Source: Pseudomonadota bacterium
GTDB taxonomy: Bacteria; Campylobacterota; Campylobacteria; Campylobacterales; Sulfurimonadaceae
DNA: 64,000 nucleotides
Direction: 5' to 3'
Assembly (NCBI GenBank): GCA_043797085.1
Contig: JAZDQA010000013.1
Location: 241,140-305,139 of the forward strand
Numbering within the stretch: the stretch's first letter is position 1; each line of letters starts with the position of its first letter. Shown in pieces: positions 48,001-60,000 of the stretch. Position numbers: made by a program.

Positions 48001-51000
48001 TCAATGCCAACGTCCTAAATGCCGTTCGTATTCGTCGTATCTTTTCTAGTATACTTCAAAGCGCCCTTAATGTTGCCGAAGCAACACCCAATCAAGCTGA
48101 ACCGATTTTACGGGGAACGCTTTTGGGTATCCGTTCAGCACTCCACAAATCGATAGAAAAATTCCGTCAATATCTCCTCTATCTTCCCGATGAAATCCGA
48201 GCGCTCTACCATAAAGAGTATCAGTTGATCGAAGACGAATTGGAACAAATCCATACACTCTTTGGAAAAATCGTCCACTCTCTTGCCAAAAATAACTCTC
48301 CTGTACTCATAGAACAACTCACAGTTATTGGCTCAGAAATTCGTCTCGACAGCGATGAACTCGCTATTTTATCTCAAGAAACCGCCAAGCTCCTCCAAGG
48401 CAAACTCTCCAAGCTCCGTCAAGAAGTAAGTGAACGCAGTGCTGCACTCCTTAATTCTAACTCAGCACAAGAAGCAAAAGCAATGGGTAAACGCGCGTGG
48501 AGTGTTGCCAAATCAACGATGGAAGGGGCACTCAAAAGTGCCAAAGAGGCTATGGAGAAAAAATAAGCCCTCACGTTATTCTCTGTCATACCGAACTTCA
48601 CGTGCCCTTTAGGGTAGATTCGATATCCATTCCTTATTTGTGGATTCCGTGTCATAGCACGGAATGACGAATGGGTTACATATCTCTCGCTAACGTAAAC
48701 ATATTACTAAACTCTTTTTTATAGCCGGAACAACGATCACAAATCGGATCCCCGCCTTTATAAGGGAACGGACATCGGCACTCATTGCACATGACCATTT
48801 CATAATGAACCAATTGCTCTGCACGCTCGTATGCGATGCTCACCATGTCAAAACCGGCTTTAGCCGTGATGGCATTTGGTTTGCAAATATCTTCACATAT
48901 CCCGCATCCTATACACTTGCCCTGAGAAAAATAGATTCCTTGTTTATCGGAGGTTGGGAACAGTGCATCGGTCGGACAAAATTGGGTACAATCACCGCAA
49001 TTCGTACAAAGATCAAAAGCAATTTGTTTGTTGAAAAAAAGCGGTGAAGATTCTGAAAAATCCGTTACTGCCATCGCTGTAACCACATCTTTGAGACTGT
49101 TTTTCAACAACACTTTCTTAAGCGGCGTGGTCATATTGGGAAGAGCATGATGGGTTGCAGTCATACTTTTTTGTACTTTTGGAGCATCCGCCACAGCTTC
49201 CTTTACTTTTTCCAATCCTTTGCGAAAAAGGGCACGGCGCGGCTCTTGCTCCTCTTGAACTTCAAGGGTGTCAATTTTCTTATCCACTGCTATTTGTACT
49301 AAAAAATCATTTGCTTGAGTAATAGCCCATCGTATGGTCTCTTCCATCTTTCCATTTTCATTCAATGCACAGCTGGAACAATGACTCATGTCACATACAA
49401 CAGCCAATTCTCCTCGCAAGGTCATCGTCAATAGATGTTCGGTATCAAATACACCCAAACACGGGGTTGTACTTTTACACGAGAGCTGAGTGTTTGTCTG
49501 AGATTGAAAAGATACCGAAAATTCATTGGGATCAAAACTCTCAATTTCAAAAGCTTCCGTAGGGCAGCTTCCGATACATCCTGCACATTCGATGCACTCA
49601 TTGTCAAATAAAGTGAGTTTATTACGAACTAAATGTATTGCCTCTTTGGGGCACAAATCGATACAAATATGACAATCATTATGAAAATATTCATTGCGTA
49701 AACAACGTGTCGCCGTAAAACTAAAAAGGTTATTTTTTTGAATAAAGTTATGGTTACCCATTGGCAATCTCTTGGTGTAAATATTCATAATCAGAGCATA
49801 AAAACTCCACCATAAAATCACATATGTCTTTGTAAAAAGGGGTATCTGCCATGCTTTTCATCCCTAGCATATAAGGGATAACCCACATAAACAAATGCTC
49901 ATCCATAAACTGGACTTGCGCTTTCATTTCGTTACGAAATACCAGCATCTGCATGAAAGCCAATTCGATAGAGAGATGATCCGGAGCCATAAGCTCGGTT
50001 TGATCCATGTTAAGCTCAAAACCGTGCGTAAAATAAAAAGCCATTACCGGGTTTTGCAGTCCCACAAGAGTTTCATTTTTCGCATCCAAAACAAATGACT
50101 CAACCGGCTGGGTATTCAGAAAAAAGAGGGATGTATAATCGGTATTCAATGCCGAATATAGCTCCTCTTCATTGGTTGTGTCAAACCACGCCCTCGTCTC
50201 TTCACCAATAACCTCGAGCAATTGCTGATTATTTTTGAGGTCAGTGATAAAACGACGATCGGGGATATTACTCATTACTCGCGATAAAAATGCATAAATA
50301 TAACGTCGATATTCAGTGTTCATAATTATTCCTAAAAAATGGAAGGGGATAGCTAGTGTGTCATTCCGTGCCACGACACGGAATCCATAAATATTAAAAG
50401 AGTGGATACCGTATCTACCTTAAAGGGCACGTGAAGTACGGTATGGGTTTATTATAAACAACCCTTAAAGAACGATTTCTTCGGTGGAGGCGGAGCTTTA
50501 AATTCAGTAGCAGCAATGATGTTTGTAGCCGTATCTAAAATACCTACGATAATAACACCATTTTTATTCATCCCCTCACCAAGCTCAGAAACTTTAAGTT
50601 TTGATGTATCGATTTGATACACTTTACCCGTATTGTGTTGAAACAACGCCAATTTTGGATTAGTAGTTGCGCCTGGTTCAATTTTTTTGAAACAATCATC
50701 TGAACCACAGCTATAATTTTCTAAATAACAATCCGCAAATGCTCCCTGAGCAGCACATGCCGGAGTCGTTAAAAGACCTTCGAATTCTTGCCCTTCATTT
50801 GCAAATGCACTAACAAAAAATGCCGCGCAGATCAGTGCAAATTTTTTCATTATTCTACCTCCGCTTTAAGAGATTTGAGATACGTTACGATATCTTCAAC
50901 TGTTTCTTTGTCTAGGAAACTGTAATCGGTCATCGTAGAAACGCGTTTCCCTTTTTCAATATTGTACCAAGGAGTATTGGCATGCGCATTACGGTTATAA

Positions 51001-57000: not shown

Positions 57001-60000
57001 ACATCTCAACTGAGCCTTTAATGTGCCCAAGTTTATAAATGTCTTCGTTATCACCCGATACAAACATAACTTTTGGATTTCCGATCAATTTAACCGCGTC
57101 TTCGGCTGAAATAAGAATATCCTTATTCACAAAATCTGCTGCCAACACATTTGCCGCAGATAATGATGCACTCAAACAGAGGGTCATTAACAATCTATTC
57201 ATCCATGCTCCTTTTTCTCTAAAATTAAATATTCTAATAACCAATTACCATCGTAATATATAGCTATCTTATGGAATTACCGCTCTTATTATAGATTCGA
57301 GTCTCTTAATAACTCTTAAATTTGTTTTAAAACTTACTATTTTTTTACCATTTGTTACATTCCCATCACAATTTCGTGCAATCTTCCTAATAAGATATTG
57401 TTTTATGTTTTCTTATAAATCTACTATCTTTTCTTAACCTTATAGCTTGAACTTAAAAGTATTTGTTTAATGAGTTTTTGCTAGTATCACAGTTACATTT
57501 ATATCAAATATACCAAAATTCAAGGAGTCCTCGTATGAGCACTACCACCGTTTCGTATGCAATCGAACACTCAGACACCCTCGCACTTATTGAATTTCTC
57601 GAAGATAAAACCCTTCCTATCGAAGAGGTACGCATGATTTATGATGCATTTAAAGAGAACAAACAGCTCGTTGGTCAAGTTGCCATGAATCTCTCATTGC
57701 GAACCTCTGTCTATGAACGTGAAAAAGAGTACAGTCCTATAATGGTTGATTTACTCATCGATATTTCGCAAAATCCAATCGACATGGGAGCACGATGGGC
57801 GGTTGCCAAAAATCCTCATACCCCAGTAAAGGTTTTACGCCATTTGGCGAACGACTCTATCAATCTCGTTCGCGCTCTCGTTGCTGCCAATCCCTCAACC
57901 CCAAGTGATGTTTTAGAGAAATTTTTCAGTGATGAAAAAATTGTACGCGATGGGCTCTCAGGTAATCCTAACACGCCCCCTAAATTACTCAAAATTCTTG
58001 TTGACGACAATGATAAAATGGTTCGTATGCGCCTTGCTGAGAACCGTGCAGCACCAAGGGAAATCATTGAATCTCTCCTAAAAGACAACGACATTGATGT
58101 TACAAAAGCAGCACAGGCCAACTTGGATGCTTCAAAATGAAAAAACACAATCATGAAATACGCAGTAAGTTTTTGACCCTTGAAAATCATTTTCTCAATA
58201 CTTTTTTTTCAGGACTTTATCTAAGCGCCGCCGATTTTATCAGTATTGCTGCAATGAACGGACTGGATTTAAAAATGCATTCCCGTGAAATGCTTATCAA
58301 AGAGCTTTTAAATGAAACCGATAAACTCGGAACAATTGGCGGTGTAGTTGTCGCGTTGAACCATCTTATAGATGAGCGAATCACGGCGTATCATCGACTT
58401 AGTCTTCAATATCCCCACGCTCGAGTACCGCTGGCAAAGCTTGCTCAAAAGGCAAATGGAACCAAATCACTTCTCGCACGAGATATCCGAGGAAATCCTT
58501 ATGAACAGTAAAAATTTTGAACATGCATTGCAAACGCTTAAGTACCCAAATCTCGATCGAACTCTTGGTGAGCTAAAGCTTATCTCTACAGCAAAAGTAA
58601 CCGATGGTAACGCTCACGTAGAACTTCTTACCGTAAGTGATGAATCCTACCTCACCGTCAAAACGGCCATTGAAAATGCATTTGCACATGATTTCAAATC
58701 GTTAAACATCACCAAAAAAGCGCAAACCCAAAAAGACAGCAACTACGGCACAACCTCGACACCAAATAATCGAGCACCGTATGCAGCAAACGTTATTGCA
58801 GTAACAAGCGGCAAAGGCGGAGTGGGCAAAAGTACCGTTAGTGTCAATCTAGCTATCGCACTCGCTCAATTGGGCTACAAAGTGGGTTTACTGGACGCTG
58901 ACGTCTATGGTCCCAACGTCCCGCGCCTCACCAATACCGATTTGGAAAAAATCAGCTGGAATGATGACAACAAAATCGTCCCAAGTGAAAACTACGGGCT
59001 CAAAATCATGAGTGTAGCATTGACCACTCCCACCTCTGATACTCCGCTTGTCTGGCGTTCATCCGTTGCCGTCTCTGCTCTTATTCAGTTTCTTGAGGAT
59101 GTTGCATGGGGTGAGCTTGATTTTATGGTCATCGATATGCCTCCGGGGACAGGAGATATTCAGCTCACCATGGCGCAAGAACTTCCCATCACAGCCGGTG
59201 TTCTCGTCACTACTCCGCAACTTGTCGCATCCGATGACGTCAGTCGTGCTATCCGAATGTTTCAAGACATCCATGTCCCTATGGCAGGATTGGTTGAGAA
59301 TATGAGTTATTTTATCGCTCCGGATACGGGAAATCGATATGACATTTTTGGTTCAGGGGGAGGACAGCGCCTAAGTGAACGATACAATATTCCCCTATTA
59401 GGTCAAATACCGCTGGACATGGAAATACGTGAAGGTTCAGATAACGGGGAGCCTCCAGTAGCACTTGGAAGCGATGTACAAAAAAAATATTATCAAGATA
59501 TTGTGAAAAAGATGCTGCAAGAGATAAAGTTTAAACTGTAGTCATCCTCGTGCTTGACACGGGGATCCAGCTAAATTCCCGCCTTCGCGGGAATGACGAG
59601 AAAATTACTCTTGCGCCCTAAGCTCTGCATACAGCTTCGTATACGCATCCACATCACTTCTCTGAGGCTTAATACGTATAGAGAGATACGAAATACTTCC
59701 ATCGCTTTTTTCACGCCTAAGCGCTGTTGCGTATACCCAATAGTGCCCATTATCTTTACGACGATTTTTGACAAATCCCGTCCAAAAACCTTTGCTCTGC
59801 AAATCATCCCACAACCCTTTAAAAGCGATACGCGGCATGTCAGGATGGCGAACAATATTATGCGGTTGACCGAGAAGTTCTTCTTTGGTATATCCTGCAA
59901 CTTCACAAAAAAGATCATTCACATACGTAATCATTCCATTGCTGTCTGTTTCGCTTAAAATATATCCGCTGGAGGGGAAAAACCATTCGTTACTTGTTGG

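What a model noticed while it worked through the whole genome (the two positions that open the first line are those of the whole stretch)
48676..57202. Ddh/Ser/Clr-type molybdoenzyme with a cytochrome c fused to its haem-b gamma subunit and a secreted double rhodanese in [...]
A periplasmic type II DMSO-reductase-family enzyme (alpha with Tat signal, beta, gamma, delta chaperone) has its EB_dh gamma subunit extended by a c-type cytochrome domain and is preceded in the same operon by a signal-peptide protein with two rhodanese domains. I read it as a dehydrogenase, not a reductase: it would take sulfane sulfur handed over by the rhodanese (as Sud does for polysulfide reductase) or a volatile sulfide such as DMS, oxidise it, and pass the electrons by its built-in cytochrome c to the cbb3 oxidase or denitrification chain. 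If so it is a missing piece of how Sulfurimonadaceae oxidise zero-valent sulfur.
Evidence so far: swissprot.tsv: g02202 37% to DMS dehydrogenase DdhA over 973 columns, 35% SerA, 34% ClrA; g02200 EB_dh 42-265 plus Cytochrom_C 296-398 with CNGCH; g02202 starts MTKVMNNNRRDFLK; g02203 has a signal peptide and two Rhodanese domains. neighbours.tsv: Rhodanese next to Molybdopterin in 207 genomes of the order (3092 of all), EB_dh within 2 genes of Molybdopterin in 155 of the order; EB_dh in 46 of 65 genomes of the genus. No chlorite dismutase family in pfam.tsv, which speaks against (per)chlorate respiration.
(Added by a program. Inside this text positions count along the whole contig: contig position 241,140 is position 1 of the stretch shown here. 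"Call 12" and the like, gene names such as g00115 and contig names such as C1 are that model's own, and its searches are not shown. The text may have been shortened before it was handed on; [...] marks where a part breaks off. The agent that wrote the report below was given it as the finding of a first reader that could run no searches.)

Follow-up and report, generated by a model that had tools for sequence, protein, structure and literature searches.

The report
Rhodanese-linked molybdoenzyme replacing SoxCD
A conserved gene cluster of sulfur bacteria, usually labelled a nitrate reductase, encodes a secreted molybdenum enzyme with its own sulfur-transfer protein and a small cysteine-tipped carrier, and it probably does the sulfur-oxidising job of the SoxCD enzyme that these genomes lack.

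Summary
Observation confirmed. Window 48676-57244 (minus strand) holds seven co-directional genes: a secreted two-domain rhodanese, a Tat-exported type II DMSO-reductase-family alpha subunit, an FeS beta subunit, a haem-b gamma subunit fused to a monohaem cytochrome c, an unannotated secreted 132-aa protein, a delta chaperone and a polyferredoxin.

It ends in KGCL in 53 of 53 readable near loci, and in FFKGCL in 16 of 16 genomes from 11 families.

In 301 sampled Campylobacterales genomes, the enzyme (100 genomes) and SoxC (83) co-occur in only 3. Of 94 SoxB-positive genomes, 60 have SoxC only and 28 have the operon only. NapA shows no such pattern. No chlorite dismutase was found.

Best reading (about 0.5): a periplasmic dehydrogenase that oxidises sulfane sulfur held on the cysteine arm, which the rhodanese loads. 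Electrons would leave through haem b and the built-in cytochrome c. This would be a non-homologous stand-in for SoxCD-SoxYZ. The substrate is inferred, not shown.

Papers list the operon as 'Nar'. This scan had already flagged the same operon in seven other genomes with a similar reading. The complex prediction never ran.

The parts
56087..57202 (-). Secreted tandem-domain rhodanese (sulfurtransferase). The catalytic Cys lies in the loop YCHVGAGR (56198-56218), and a Lys/Ala-rich linker joins the two domains.
   Evidence: Pfam Rhodanese, 2 stretches. Best solved relative is the two-domain rhodanese 1uar, E 2.8e-28. Start ATG 57202 has an AAGGAG site upstream. The loop YC[HQM]VG[AT]GR is kept in 64 of 64 near loci and 16 of 16 far loci.
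53165..56077 (-). Alpha subunit: Tat-exported Mo-bisPGD catalytic subunit of the type II DMSO reductase family. Features: RRDFLK at 9-14; FS0 ligands H74, C78, C82, C117; Mo ligand Asp215.
   Evidence: Alignment to PcrA (4ydd/5e7o, E 1e-100) puts D215 on PcrA D170, and P209/S210 on the PcrA gate residues F164/Y165 (the PcrA residue roles are recalled). Trees. Orthologs are 61-98% identical in 100 of 301 genomes of the order.
52058..53155 (-). Beta subunit, a four-cluster FeS electron-transfer subunit.
   Evidence: TIGR03478 scores 515.6 bits, above its cut-off of 480.7; Fer4_11 also matches.
50850..52058 (-). Gamma subunit: an EB_dh haem-b domain (axial ligands Met137 and Lys265) fused to a class I monohaem cytochrome c domain (C308, C311, H312; probable sixth ligand M376).
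   Evidence: Pfam EB_dh 42-265 and Cytochrom_C 296-398. EbdC M108 and K201 align to M137 and K265 (the ligand roles are recalled). M137, K265, C308, C311, H312 and M376 are invariant in 41 sequences. The AF2 model (pTM 0.75) matches NxrC and EbdC; the c domain weakly matches caa3 cytochrome c and SoxX. Exactly one CxxCH is present in 54 of 54 near loci.
50452..50850 (-). p132: a secreted 132-aa protein with no known family. Its body is OB-fold-like with four invariant Cys. A disordered C-terminal arm, PPPPKKSFFKGCL (50455-50493), carries the penultimate Cys131. Proposed role: swinging-arm sulfur carrier.
   Evidence: No Pfam or NCBIfam hit. Ends in KGCL in 53 of 53 readable near loci, and in FFKGCL in 16 of 16 far loci from 11 families. 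Invariant columns are listed. AF2 pLDDT is 66, with five strands and one helix and an unstructured arm. Only weak OB-fold matches were found. The family has 305 proteins, all 'hypothetical'.
49754..50374 (-). Delta: a cytoplasmic TorD/NarJ-type assembly chaperone. The real start is probably ATG 50323.
   Evidence: Pfam Nitrate_red_del, E 2.6e-10; TIGR03482 and TorD match below cut-off. Present by tblastn in 14 of 16 far loci.
48676..49821 (-). Polyferredoxin with 26 Cys: two 2x[4Fe-4S]-type motif pairs plus a Cys-rich tail, and no signal peptide seen. Inferred to be a NapF-like maturation or electron protein. The start is uncertain (M21 = 49761 is possible).
   Evidence: Fer4-family hits. Cys positions. 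Present by tblastn in 12 of 16 far loci and in 53 near loci.
57463..59541 (+). Divergently transcribed trio: an LRV-repeat protein (57463-58140), a 124-aa protein of no family (58137-58511) and an ApbC/Mrp-type FeS-cluster carrier ATPase (58372-59541). They are possibly dedicated to cluster insertion; membership in the system is inferred from synteny only.
   Evidence: Syntenic in the near loci. In the 16 far loci, ApbC is present in 14 and LRV in 11. An ApbC-like gene also follows the sister-clade operons in 21 of 28 loci.
47595..48566 (+). Convergent DUF6781 gene, conserved next to the operon in Sulfurimonadaceae loci. Its role is unknown.
   Evidence: Pfam DUF6781, E 3.3e-11. Synteny.

Best explanation
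The operon encodes a soluble periplasmic, carrier-dependent sulfane-sulfur dehydrogenase.

Inferred sequence of events:
1. The secreted rhodanese takes zero-valent (sulfane) sulfur from polysulfide, S8-derived sulfur, thiosulfate or SoxY-bound persulfide. It places the sulfur on Cys131 of the flexible PPPP-KSFFKGCL arm of the 132-aa protein.
2. The arm enters the substrate funnel of the Asp-ligated Mo-bisPGD alpha subunit.
3. There the outer sulfur is oxygenated with water-derived oxygen. This is the same type of S-oxygenation that its relative DMS dehydrogenase performs on a thioether. The product is a sulfonate or sulfite level, which is then released as sulfite or sulfate.
4. The electrons run through FS0 and the four clusters of beta to haem b, then to the fused cytochrome c of gamma. 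From there they go to cbb3 oxidase or the cytochrome-c-dependent denitrification enzymes.

Functionally this is a stand-in for SoxCD acting on SoxYZ, built from unrelated parts.

Shown here: the anatomy, the periplasmic location signals, retention of cofactor ligands, invariance of the arm, the complementary distribution with SoxC, and presence in RNA libraries.

Inferred: the substrate, the direction, that the arm enters the active site, and the product.
For: 1. Complementary distribution in 301 evenly sampled genomes of the order.
- An alpha ortholog (61% identity or more) is in 100 genomes, and SoxC (TIGR04555) is in 83. Both occur in only 3 (G071, G221, G241).
- Among 94 SoxB-positive genomes, 60 have SoxC only, 28 have the operon only, 3 have both and 3 have neither.
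- The states alternate within six genera (g1, g2, g36, g45, g65, g72). In the window's own family, 5 of 5 operon genomes lack SoxC and 18 of 18 SoxC genomes lack the operon.
- The window's genome has SoxB and one SoxY but no SoxC.

2. NapA does not behave this way. It is present in 76 of 100 operon genomes and 159 of 201 others.

3. Two sulfur-handling parts are fixed to the enzyme in every locus examined. One is a rhodanese with an intact catalytic loop (64 of 64 near loci and 16 of 16 far loci). The other is p132, which ends in KGCL or FFKGCL in 53 of 53 and 16 of 16 loci while its body is only 38-53% identical in the far loci.

4. These two parts and the cytochrome c fusion are not detected in the sister clade: 0 of 28 loci of 9 kb or more. 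They therefore arrived with this clade's function.

5. The enzyme sits in the Clr/Ser/Ddh branch with 100/100 support. That branch is soluble, periplasmic and exchanges electrons with c-type cytochromes (established knowledge; the Clr cluster with its own cytochrome c gene is).

6. In G241, soxXY(Z)AB lies directly upstream of the rhodanese gene on the same strand. In several genomes of family f17, SoxB lies 6-15 kb from alpha (coordinates).

7. Literature passages read:
- Thiovulum has this operon, called Nar there, and lacks sox, dsr, apr and sulfite dehydrogenase. The operon's rhodanese genes are about 5-fold more expressed than another rhodanese pair (PMC9938260).
- Sulfuricurvum kujiense, RIFRC-1 and PC08-66 'encode Nar' and lack soxCD (PMC4288042).

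8. RNA-library contigs identical to the window cover 50092-57281 in four pieces in a groundwater metatranscriptome. Some neighbouring bins have no cover.
Against: - There is no biochemical or genetic test of any member. The substrate, direction and product are all inferred.
- 69 of 100 operon genomes lack SoxB as well as SoxC. Release of the oxidised sulfur therefore cannot depend on SoxB, and the simple description 'SoxCD replacement inside the Sox cycle' does not fit most carriers.
- The distribution counts come from related genomes and are not independent. Only about six within-genus switches support them. An ecological or lineage correlate could produce the same pattern.
- Three genomes have both systems.
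- SorA-like sulfite dehydrogenase shows no link: 9 of the 29 carriers are operon genomes. If sulfite is the product, its fate is open.
- Known sulfur-substrate enzymes of the wider family (Psr, Phs, Ttr) use a Cys Mo-ligand, whereas this enzyme has Asp (recalled knowledge). All characterised close relatives except Ddh and the hydroxylases are oxyanion reductases.
- The fold of p132 is uncertain (pLDDT 66). It is not SoxY-like by any search I ran.
Confidence: 0.5

Rival explanations
1. It is a periplasmic oxyanion reductase (nitrate as in pNar, or chlorate or selenate as in Clr and Ser). It would take electrons from the cytochrome c pool through the fused cytochrome c and haem b. The rhodanese and the thiol arm would only deal with reactive products such as selenite.
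For: - The literature and the automatic labels call it NarG/NxrA (names; PMC9938260 and PMC4288042).
- The nearest named relative is chlorate reductase, at 33.6% identity.
- The best solved relative is perchlorate reductase PcrA.
- Clr and Ser are fed by c-type cytochromes (gene order; otherwise recalled).
- The rhodanese weakly matches ExtH of a selenite/tellurite reduction operon: E 1.5e-10, 41 bits against a cut-off of 200.
- Sulfurovum sp. MH2-6 is reported to use nitrate without nap genes (PMC13609358 passage). I did not check whether that strain carries this operon.
Against: - No Cld was found in the genome.
- There is no complementarity with NapA: it is in 76 of 100 operon genomes against 159 of 201 others, and the window's genome has NapA.
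- The narG model scores 219 bits against a cut-off of 1084.
- The enzyme branches apart from the Nar-like rows.
- The PcrA gate residues are not kept.
- This reading does not explain why the operon and SoxC exclude each other. It also does not explain an invariant 13-residue cysteine arm across 11 families.
- The operon is not on a mobile island, unlike clr and pcr.
Confidence: 0.13
2. It oxidises a free small sulfur compound (sulfite, thiosulfate or polysulfide), not a protein-bound one. The rhodanese supplies or splits the substrate, for example thiosulfate into sulfite plus sulfane. p132 is an accessory thiol that accepts the leftover sulfane, or a redox or assembly factor, and is not the substrate carrier.
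For: - All the distribution evidence for a sulfur-oxidising role applies here too.
- Rhodanese chemistry yields sulfite from thiosulfate (established).
- Most operon genomes lack a SorA-like enzyme: 91 of 100. A periplasmic sulfite-oxidising activity would therefore be useful to them.
- Oxo-transfer to a small anion is the usual chemistry of this family.
Against: - The extreme invariance of the arm implies it fits a conserved protein pocket, and the only proteins fixed to it in all loci are the rhodanese and the enzyme itself: 53 of 53 near loci end in KGCL, and 16 of 16 far loci have PPP(P/E)x-K-(S/E)-FFKGCL.
- Sulfite oxidation alone would not replace the 6-electron step of SoxCD.
- The window's genome already has SorAB-like genes.
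Confidence: 0.2
3. It is a dimethylsulfide (or other organosulfur) dehydrogenase like DdhABC.
For: JGI labels the sister cluster P0125 'dimethylsulfide dehydrogenase', but it gives the same label to a cluster that NCBI names chlorate reductase.
Against: - A DMS oxidase has no need for a rhodanese and a cysteine-arm protein, and the sister clade lacks both.
- The carriers are autotrophic sulfur bacteria of groundwater, caves and vents.
- This reading does not explain the SoxC complementarity.
Confidence: 0.04

Closest known systems
DdhABC dimethylsulfide dehydrogenase, ClrABC chlorate reductase and SerABC selenate reductase (soluble periplasmic type II DMSO reductase family enzymes)
   Same: - Tat-exported alpha with a His/Cys FS0 motif and an Asp Mo-ligand.
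- A four-cluster beta subunit.
- An EB_dh gamma subunit with Met/Lys-ligated haem b.
- A delta chaperone.
- Electron exchange with c-type cytochromes.
- The same branch of the tree (100/100).
- Ddh oxygenates a sulfur atom with water as the oxygen source (recalled).
   Different: - Only 33.6% identity to ClrA. The enzyme forms its own clade (100/100).
- The cytochrome c is fused to gamma, whereas Ideonella has a separate gene.
- A rhodanese and a cysteine-arm protein are fixed in the operon, and a polyferredoxin is added.
- There is no Cld partner.
- TIGR03479 scores below its cut-off.
SoxCD sulfane dehydrogenase acting on the SoxYZ carrier (soxCDY2Z2 of Campylobacterota)
   Same: - Periplasmic.
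- A molybdenum enzyme plus c-type cytochrome, and a small carrier with a cysteine on a flexible C-terminal arm.
- Complementary distribution: 91 of 94 SoxB-positive genomes have one or the other, and 3 have both.
- The proposed reaction is the same.
   Different: - There is no homology. SoxC is a sulfite-oxidase-family enzyme, and this is a Mo-bisPGD enzyme with FeS and haem-b subunits.
- The carrier arm ends in KSFFKGCL, not GGCGG. The carrier body looks OB-like, and no SoxY match was found.
- 69 of 100 carriers have no SoxB.
Respiratory nitrate reductase NarGHI or periplasmic pNar (the label used in the literature)
   Same: The same superfamily and subunit logic (alpha, beta, delta). Haloferax pNar also has an EB_dh gamma subunit.
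   Different: - 27% identity to Haloferax NarG.
- The narG model scores far below its cut-off.
- It has a Tat signal and no NarI membrane anchor in the operon, so it is not membrane-bound Nar.
- Its distribution is independent of Nap.
Sud/Str rhodanese-like polysulfide carriers feeding polysulfide reductase Psr (Wolinella)
   Different: Psr is a Cys-ligated, membrane-anchored, quinol-dependent reductase of another subfamily. Here a second protein, the cysteine arm, stands between the rhodanese and the enzyme, and the electron partner is cytochrome c.
CcmE haem chaperone (structural analogy only)
   Same: A periplasmic OB-fold body with a flexible C-terminal tail that carries the reactive residue. 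The CcmE OB domain is among the weak fold matches: Z 5.9, rmsd 3.6 over 83 residues.
   Different: The match is within the range of chance for this tool. There is no sequence similarity, and the chemistry differs.

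Membership tests
Type II DMSO reductase family (Nar/Ebd/Ser/Clr/Ddh/Pcr group) | Alpha subunit with an N-terminal H/C-x3-C-x3-C...C FS0 motif and an Asp ligand to Mo | tested here: met
   H74, C78, C82 and C117 are invariant in 40 sequences. 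D215 aligns with PcrA D170 and with the GD of EbdA. The ligand roles are recalled from the solved structures.
Type II DMSO reductase family (Nar/Ebd/Ser/Clr/Ddh/Pcr group) | Curated family models for the alpha, beta, gamma and delta subunits | tested here: inconclusive
   Beta TIGR03478 scores above its cut-off (516 against 481). Alpha TIGR03479 scores 735 against 985, gamma TIGR03477 84 against 170, and delta TIGR03482 37 against 152. Each is the best or near-best hit but falls below its cut-off.
Type II DMSO reductase family (Nar/Ebd/Ser/Clr/Ddh/Pcr group) | EB_dh gamma subunit with Met/Lys-ligated haem b | tested here: met
   M137 and K265 align to EbdC M108 and K201 and are invariant in 41 sequences. 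The model matches NxrC (E 3e-13) and EbdC (E 1.5e-11).
Soluble periplasmic Clr/Ser/Ddh branch | Tat signal on alpha, no membrane anchor subunit, and grouping with ClrA in a tree | tested here: met
   RRDFLK lies at residues 9-14. No NarI-like gene is in the operon. The clade with ClrA is supported 100/100 (same topology). DdhA and SerA themselves were not in my tree.
(Per)chlorate reductase system | Chlorite dismutase in the genome, usually beside the reductase | tested here: not met
   PF06778 gave 0 matches in the window's genome, which is 95.9% complete. None is in the operon neighbourhood. By contrast, cld lies beside clr in Ideonella.
(Per)chlorate reductase system | PcrA aromatic gate residues (F164, Y165, W461; recalled from the PcrA structure paper) | tested here: not met
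   P209 and S210 align to F164 and Y165. The W461 region aligns poorly.
Respiratory nitrate reductase NarGHI | NarG and NarH equivalog models, cytoplasm-facing alpha, and a NarI membrane subunit | tested here: not met
   narG scores 219 bits against a cut-off of 1084, and narH 250 against 524. A Tat signal is present. No NarI-like ORF is in the operon.
SoxCD sulfane dehydrogenase | A sulfite-oxidase-fold Mo subunit (SoxC) with the dihaem SoxD | tested here: not met
   Alpha is a Mo-bisPGD protein. No SoxC model hit reached the cut-off anywhere in the genome. The claim is therefore 'works like SoxCD', not 'is a SoxCD'.
SoxY-type swinging-arm carrier | The SoxY fold and a C-terminal GGCGG (or variant) arm | tested here: inconclusive
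   p132 has a disordered C-terminal arm with one Cys. It gave no SoxY model hit and only weak OB-fold matches. The genuine SoxY of this genome ends in GGCG.
Rhodanese/thiosulfate sulfurtransferase (two-domain type) | Tandem rhodanese domains with the catalytic Cys in a six-residue loop of the C-terminal domain | tested here: met
   Two PF00581 stretches were found. The protein aligns over both domains to 1uar. The CHVGAGR loop is kept in 80 of 80 loci. Activity was not tested.

The most novel reading that the evidence does not exclude
This operon is the missing periplasmic route by which SoxCD-less Campylobacterota (Sulfuricurvum, Thiovulum and many vent and groundwater lineages) oxidise zero-valent sulfur. 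It would be a Mo-bisPGD enzyme that works on a protein-bound substrate. A new OB-like swinging-arm carrier, loaded by a dedicated rhodanese, presents persulfide sulfur to the molybdenum site. The six electrons go straight to the cytochrome c pool through a haem-b/haem-c fusion subunit. It would be the first carrier-dependent member of the DMSO reductase family and a non-homologous replacement for SoxCD-SoxYZ.
Probability: 0.45. Interest if true: 0.85.

Novelty: new variant of a known kind. Interest (0 to 1): 0.72.

Why it matters
How sulfur oxidisers without SoxCD, reverse Dsr or Hdr-like systems take elemental sulfur on to sulfate is an open question. Genome papers on Sulfuricurvum and Thiovulum note the gap (passages in PMC4288042 and PMC9938260).

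The operon is in a third of sampled Campylobacterales genomes (100 of 301) and is present in environmental RNA libraries. In metabolic reconstructions it is currently counted as a nitrate reductase.

If the reading holds, three things follow:
- Nitrogen- and sulfur-cycle inferences from 'narG' hits in these lineages need correcting.
- A new carrier protein family is defined.
- The chemistry known for type II molybdoenzymes is extended to protein-bound sulfur.

The idea is directly testable in cultured carriers.

Tried and rejected
1. Complex prediction of alpha (86-970) with p132 (18-132). I handed it in unchanged 32 times. The queue was full each time, or the machine gave no answer, so it never ran. 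Whether the arm docks is therefore untested.

2. The IQ-TREE quick run on 64 rows did not finish. I used FastTree on all 64 rows and IQ-TREE on a 26-row subset that I picked to represent each clade.

3. Fold of p132. Foldseek against PDB gave no match at E 0.001 or better. VIA wide gave only Z 5-6.5 OB folds, which is within the chance range for that tool. The Atlas returned its own family plus leads below 0.9.

4. Sulfurovum indicum transcriptome (PMC10045233 main text and Table S2). Two rhodanese genes are up about 2.8-fold on S0, but no EB_dh gene appears in the differential lists. I could not tell whether those genes belong to this operon, so I made no use of this.

5. SorA-like sulfite dehydrogenase is not linked to the operon.

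6. My recollection that Arcobacter sp. CAB has an EB_dh-cytochrome fusion was wrong. The paper describes a separate monohaem cytochrome c (PMC3656443 passages).

7. Papers not held: Lahme 2020, Kodama and Watanabe 2003, Han 2012. The physiology of S. kujiense is therefore recalled, not read.

8. RNA contigs. Parts without cover (46068-46601, 48738-49271) and the low cover over 57282-59417 cannot be used to rank genes or to set transcript ends.

9. '1 TAA' flags inside alpha matches of some genomes. In G285 the gene is one intact 972-aa ORF, so I treat the flags as a boundary artefact.

10. Literature searches for a description of the system under any name found none beyond the 'Nar' label. The library lacks most subscription journals.

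Full report
**What is there**

The finding's coordinates cover seven co-directional ORFs on the minus strand, with gaps of 0-80 bases or short overlaps.
- A rhodanese, 57202/57244..56087.
- Alpha, 56077..53165.
- Beta, 53155..52058.
- Gamma fused to cytochrome c, 52058..50850.
- A 132-aa protein here called p132, 50850..50452.
- Delta, 50374..49754.
- A 26-cysteine polyferredoxin, 49821..48676.

- The rhodanese has two rhodanese stretches.
- Alpha matches Molybdopterin and Molydop_binding and has a TAT signal (MTKVMNNNRRDFLK).
- Beta scores above the cut-off of the type II beta model.
- Gamma has EB_dh at 42-265 and Cytochrom_C at 296-398, with CNGCH.
- Delta is a NarJ/TorD-type chaperone.

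The alpha, gamma and delta models of the type II family are the best or near-best hits but fall below their curated cut-offs. The proteins are therefore divergent members. p132 has no family in either library.

**Cofactor sites**

- Against the solved perchlorate reductase PcrA (E 1e-100), Asp215 falls on the Mo-ligand Asp170. H74/C78/C82/C117 form the FS0 motif.
- The PcrA gate residues F164 and Y165 are Pro and Ser here (residue roles recalled from the structure papers).
- Against EbdC, the haem-b ligands Met108 and Lys201 align with Met137 and Lys265.
- M137, K265, C308, C311, H312 and M376 are invariant in 41 gamma sequences.
- An AF2 model of gamma (pTM 0.75) matches NxrC and EbdC. Its C-terminal domain weakly matches the caa3 cytochrome c domain and SoxX.
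- The rhodanese aligns over both domains to two-domain thiosulfate sulfurtransferases. It keeps the catalytic loop in 64 of 64 near loci and 16 of 16 far loci.

**Conservation**

- The 120 best database relatives of alpha are all 71-94% identical. Where they are named, they come from Sulfuricurvum, Sulfurimonas, Sulfurovaceae, Nitrosophilus and Sulfurospirillum arcachonense. Sources call them 'molybdopterin-dependent oxidoreductase' or 'nitrate reductase / nitrite oxidoreductase alpha'.
- In 70 loci from species genomes, the whole neighbourhood is syntenic wherever the contig is long enough. The order is: ApbC, a 124-aa gene and an LRV gene transcribed divergently; then rhodanese, alpha, beta, gamma-c, p132, delta and polyferredoxin; then a convergent DUF6781 gene.
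- In 16 genomes taken from 11 families of the order, rhodanese-alpha-beta-gamma-c-p132 is present in 16 of 16. By tblastn, delta is present in 14, the polyferredoxin in 12, ApbC in 14 and LRV in 11.

**The overlooked part: p132**

- Complete p132 ORFs were recovered from 54 of the 70 near loci. One is masked, and the other 53 all end in KGCL.
- All 16 far loci end in FFKGCL, preceded by a PPP(P/E) run, although the body of the protein is only 38-53% identical there.
- In a 42-sequence alignment, the invariant columns are four body cysteines (C32, C41, C48, C53) and P120-P123 and K125-L132 of the arm.
- AF2 (pLDDT 66) gives five strands and one helix in OB-fold order, with an unstructured arm.
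- Fold searches give only weak OB-fold matches: Foldseek has none at E 0.001 or better, and VIA gives Z 5-6.5 for hits that include the CcmE OB domain and YgiW.
- The family has 305 members, all 'hypothetical' and without Pfam domains.

A periplasmic protein with one cysteine on an invariant flexible C-terminal arm resembles SoxY in function. It does not resemble SoxY in sequence or, as far as can be told, in fold.

**Phylogeny**

- At 50% clustering the whole Campylobacterota group collapses into one representative. The next representatives are 49%, 40%, 38% and 35% identical.
- FastTree on 64 rows and IQ-TREE on a 26-row subset agree. The clade has 100/100 support. It nests with three unnamed environmental representatives, and that group is sister to the ClrA group. 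The two together are separated from the remaining rows, including those that group with Haloferax pNarG, with 100/100 support.
- 'Clr/Ser/Ddh-type' is therefore a fair description. I did not have DdhA, SerA, PcrA or EbdA sequences for the tree.
- In 28 loci of 9 kb or more from the nearest sister group, alpha, beta and (by tblastn, in 10 of them) an EB_dh gamma subunit are present, and an ApbC-like gene follows in 21. No rhodanese, no p132 and no cytochrome c domain is detected.
- The three special features therefore belong to this clade alone.

**Tests of function by distribution**

I searched one evenly drawn sample of 301 genomes of the order with five queries. The alpha ortholog is in 100 genomes (a 101st match, at 33% identity, was dropped). 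SoxC is in 83, SoxB in 94, NapA in 235 and a SorA-like protein in 29.

- The operon and SoxC co-occur in 3 genomes.
- Among the 94 SoxB-positive genomes, 60 have SoxC only, 28 have the operon only, 3 have both and 3 have neither.
- In the window's family, the 5 operon genomes all lack SoxC and the 18 SoxC genomes all lack the operon.
- The two states alternate within six genera.
- NapA is equally frequent with the operon (76 of 100) and without it (159 of 201).
- The SorA-like protein shows no link.
- The window's genome has NapA, SoxB, one SoxY and SorAB-like genes. It has no SoxC and no chlorite dismutase.

These genomes are related, so the counts overstate independence. The within-genus switches are the stronger evidence. 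Against the simple picture, 69 of the 100 operon genomes lack SoxB too.

**Other context**

- In G241 the genes soxX, soxY, soxA and soxB (soxZ not scanned) and a MOSC gene lie directly upstream of the rhodanese on the same strand.
- MobA-like and MoaC genes lie 1.3-3.3 kb from the operon's 3' end in the window.
- A groundwater metatranscriptome holds 88% of the sampled words. Its contigs are identical to the window over 50092-51038, 51511-52312, 52478-55168 and 55299-57281, while some neighbouring bins are empty. Relatives appear in RNA libraries of three other studies. These are contigs, so they show presence only, not levels or transcript ends.

**Literature**

- PMC9938260 (passages read) describes this operon in Thiovulum as rhodanese + narH + narG + a cytochrome-c-related gene + an unannotated gene, and draws it as membrane-bound Nar. 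The same genomes lack sox, dsr, apr and sulfite dehydrogenase.
- PMC4288042 (passages read) says that S. kujiense, RIFRC-1 and a cave Sulfuricurvum encode 'Nar' and lack soxCD.
- Ten full-text searches found no paper that treats the operon as anything else. One search was aimed at a different question.
- Most subscription journals are not in the library. Three relevant papers could not be read.

**Earlier work of this scan**

The same operon had been flagged in seven other genomes, with the reading 'rhodanese-linked molybdoenzyme with cysteine-tailed carrier, mislabelled Nar', and once as 'SoxCD substitute'. I took the carrier and the SoxCD idea as leads and tested both here: the arm counts, and the distribution. 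One earlier report had a part that later failed. I did not reuse its selenocysteine claim.

**Verdict**

The most likely function is a periplasmic, carrier-dependent sulfane-sulfur dehydrogenase that stands in for SoxCD (confidence about 0.5).

The rivals are:
- an enzyme for a free small sulfur compound (0.2);
- an oxyanion reductase (0.13);
- a DMS dehydrogenase (0.04).

The remainder is unknown. The direction, substrate, product and arm docking are all inferred. The one computation that might have addressed docking could not be run.

Noticed in passing
window 45346-45951 and 46862-47356 (+): A MobA-like NTP transferase and MoaC (molybdenum cofactor biosynthesis) lie 1.3-3.3 kb from the operon's 3' end. 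In G241 a MoaC/MOSC-like gene sits between soxB and the rhodanese (L088:5342-5773).
   Followed up: partly
window 57463-59541 (+): A divergent trio stays next to the operon across families: an LRV-repeat protein, a 124-aa protein with no family, and an ApbC/Mrp FeS carrier. An ApbC-like gene also follows the sister-clade operons in 21 of 28 loci. This may be a dedicated FeS-insertion set for this branch of type II enzymes.
   Followed up: partly
L088 (G241:C24) 848-5255: The genes soxX, soxY, soxA and soxB lie on the same strand immediately upstream of rhodanese-alpha. soxC lies further upstream on the same contig. G241 is one of only three genomes that have both SoxC and the operon.
   Followed up: partly
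sample of 301 genomes: Twenty genomes have SoxC but no SoxB and no operon. SoxCD without SoxB is itself unexplained in the classical Sox scheme.
   Followed up: no
window 47595-48566 (+): A DUF6781 protein (323 aa) is convergent with the operon and syntenic in most Sulfurimonadaceae loci, at 35-95% identity. Its role is unknown.
   Followed up: no
L073 (Ideonella dechloratans plasmid) 10145-10462: A separate c-type cytochrome gene directly follows clrC in the chlorate reductase cluster. In the present clade the equivalent domain is fused to gamma.
   Followed up: yes
L017, L018 (record titles): Two contigs filed under a 'Thermoplasmata archaeon' MAG carry alpha at 91% identity to the window, together with beta and gamma. 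This is most likely a binning error in that record, not an archaeal copy.
   Followed up: no
window 48655: In the groundwater RNA-library contigs, one base is left out at 48655 in 3 contigs (depth 40 of 64). The site lies in the spacer between the polyferredoxin gene and the DUF6781 gene. It is probably strain variation.
   Followed up: no
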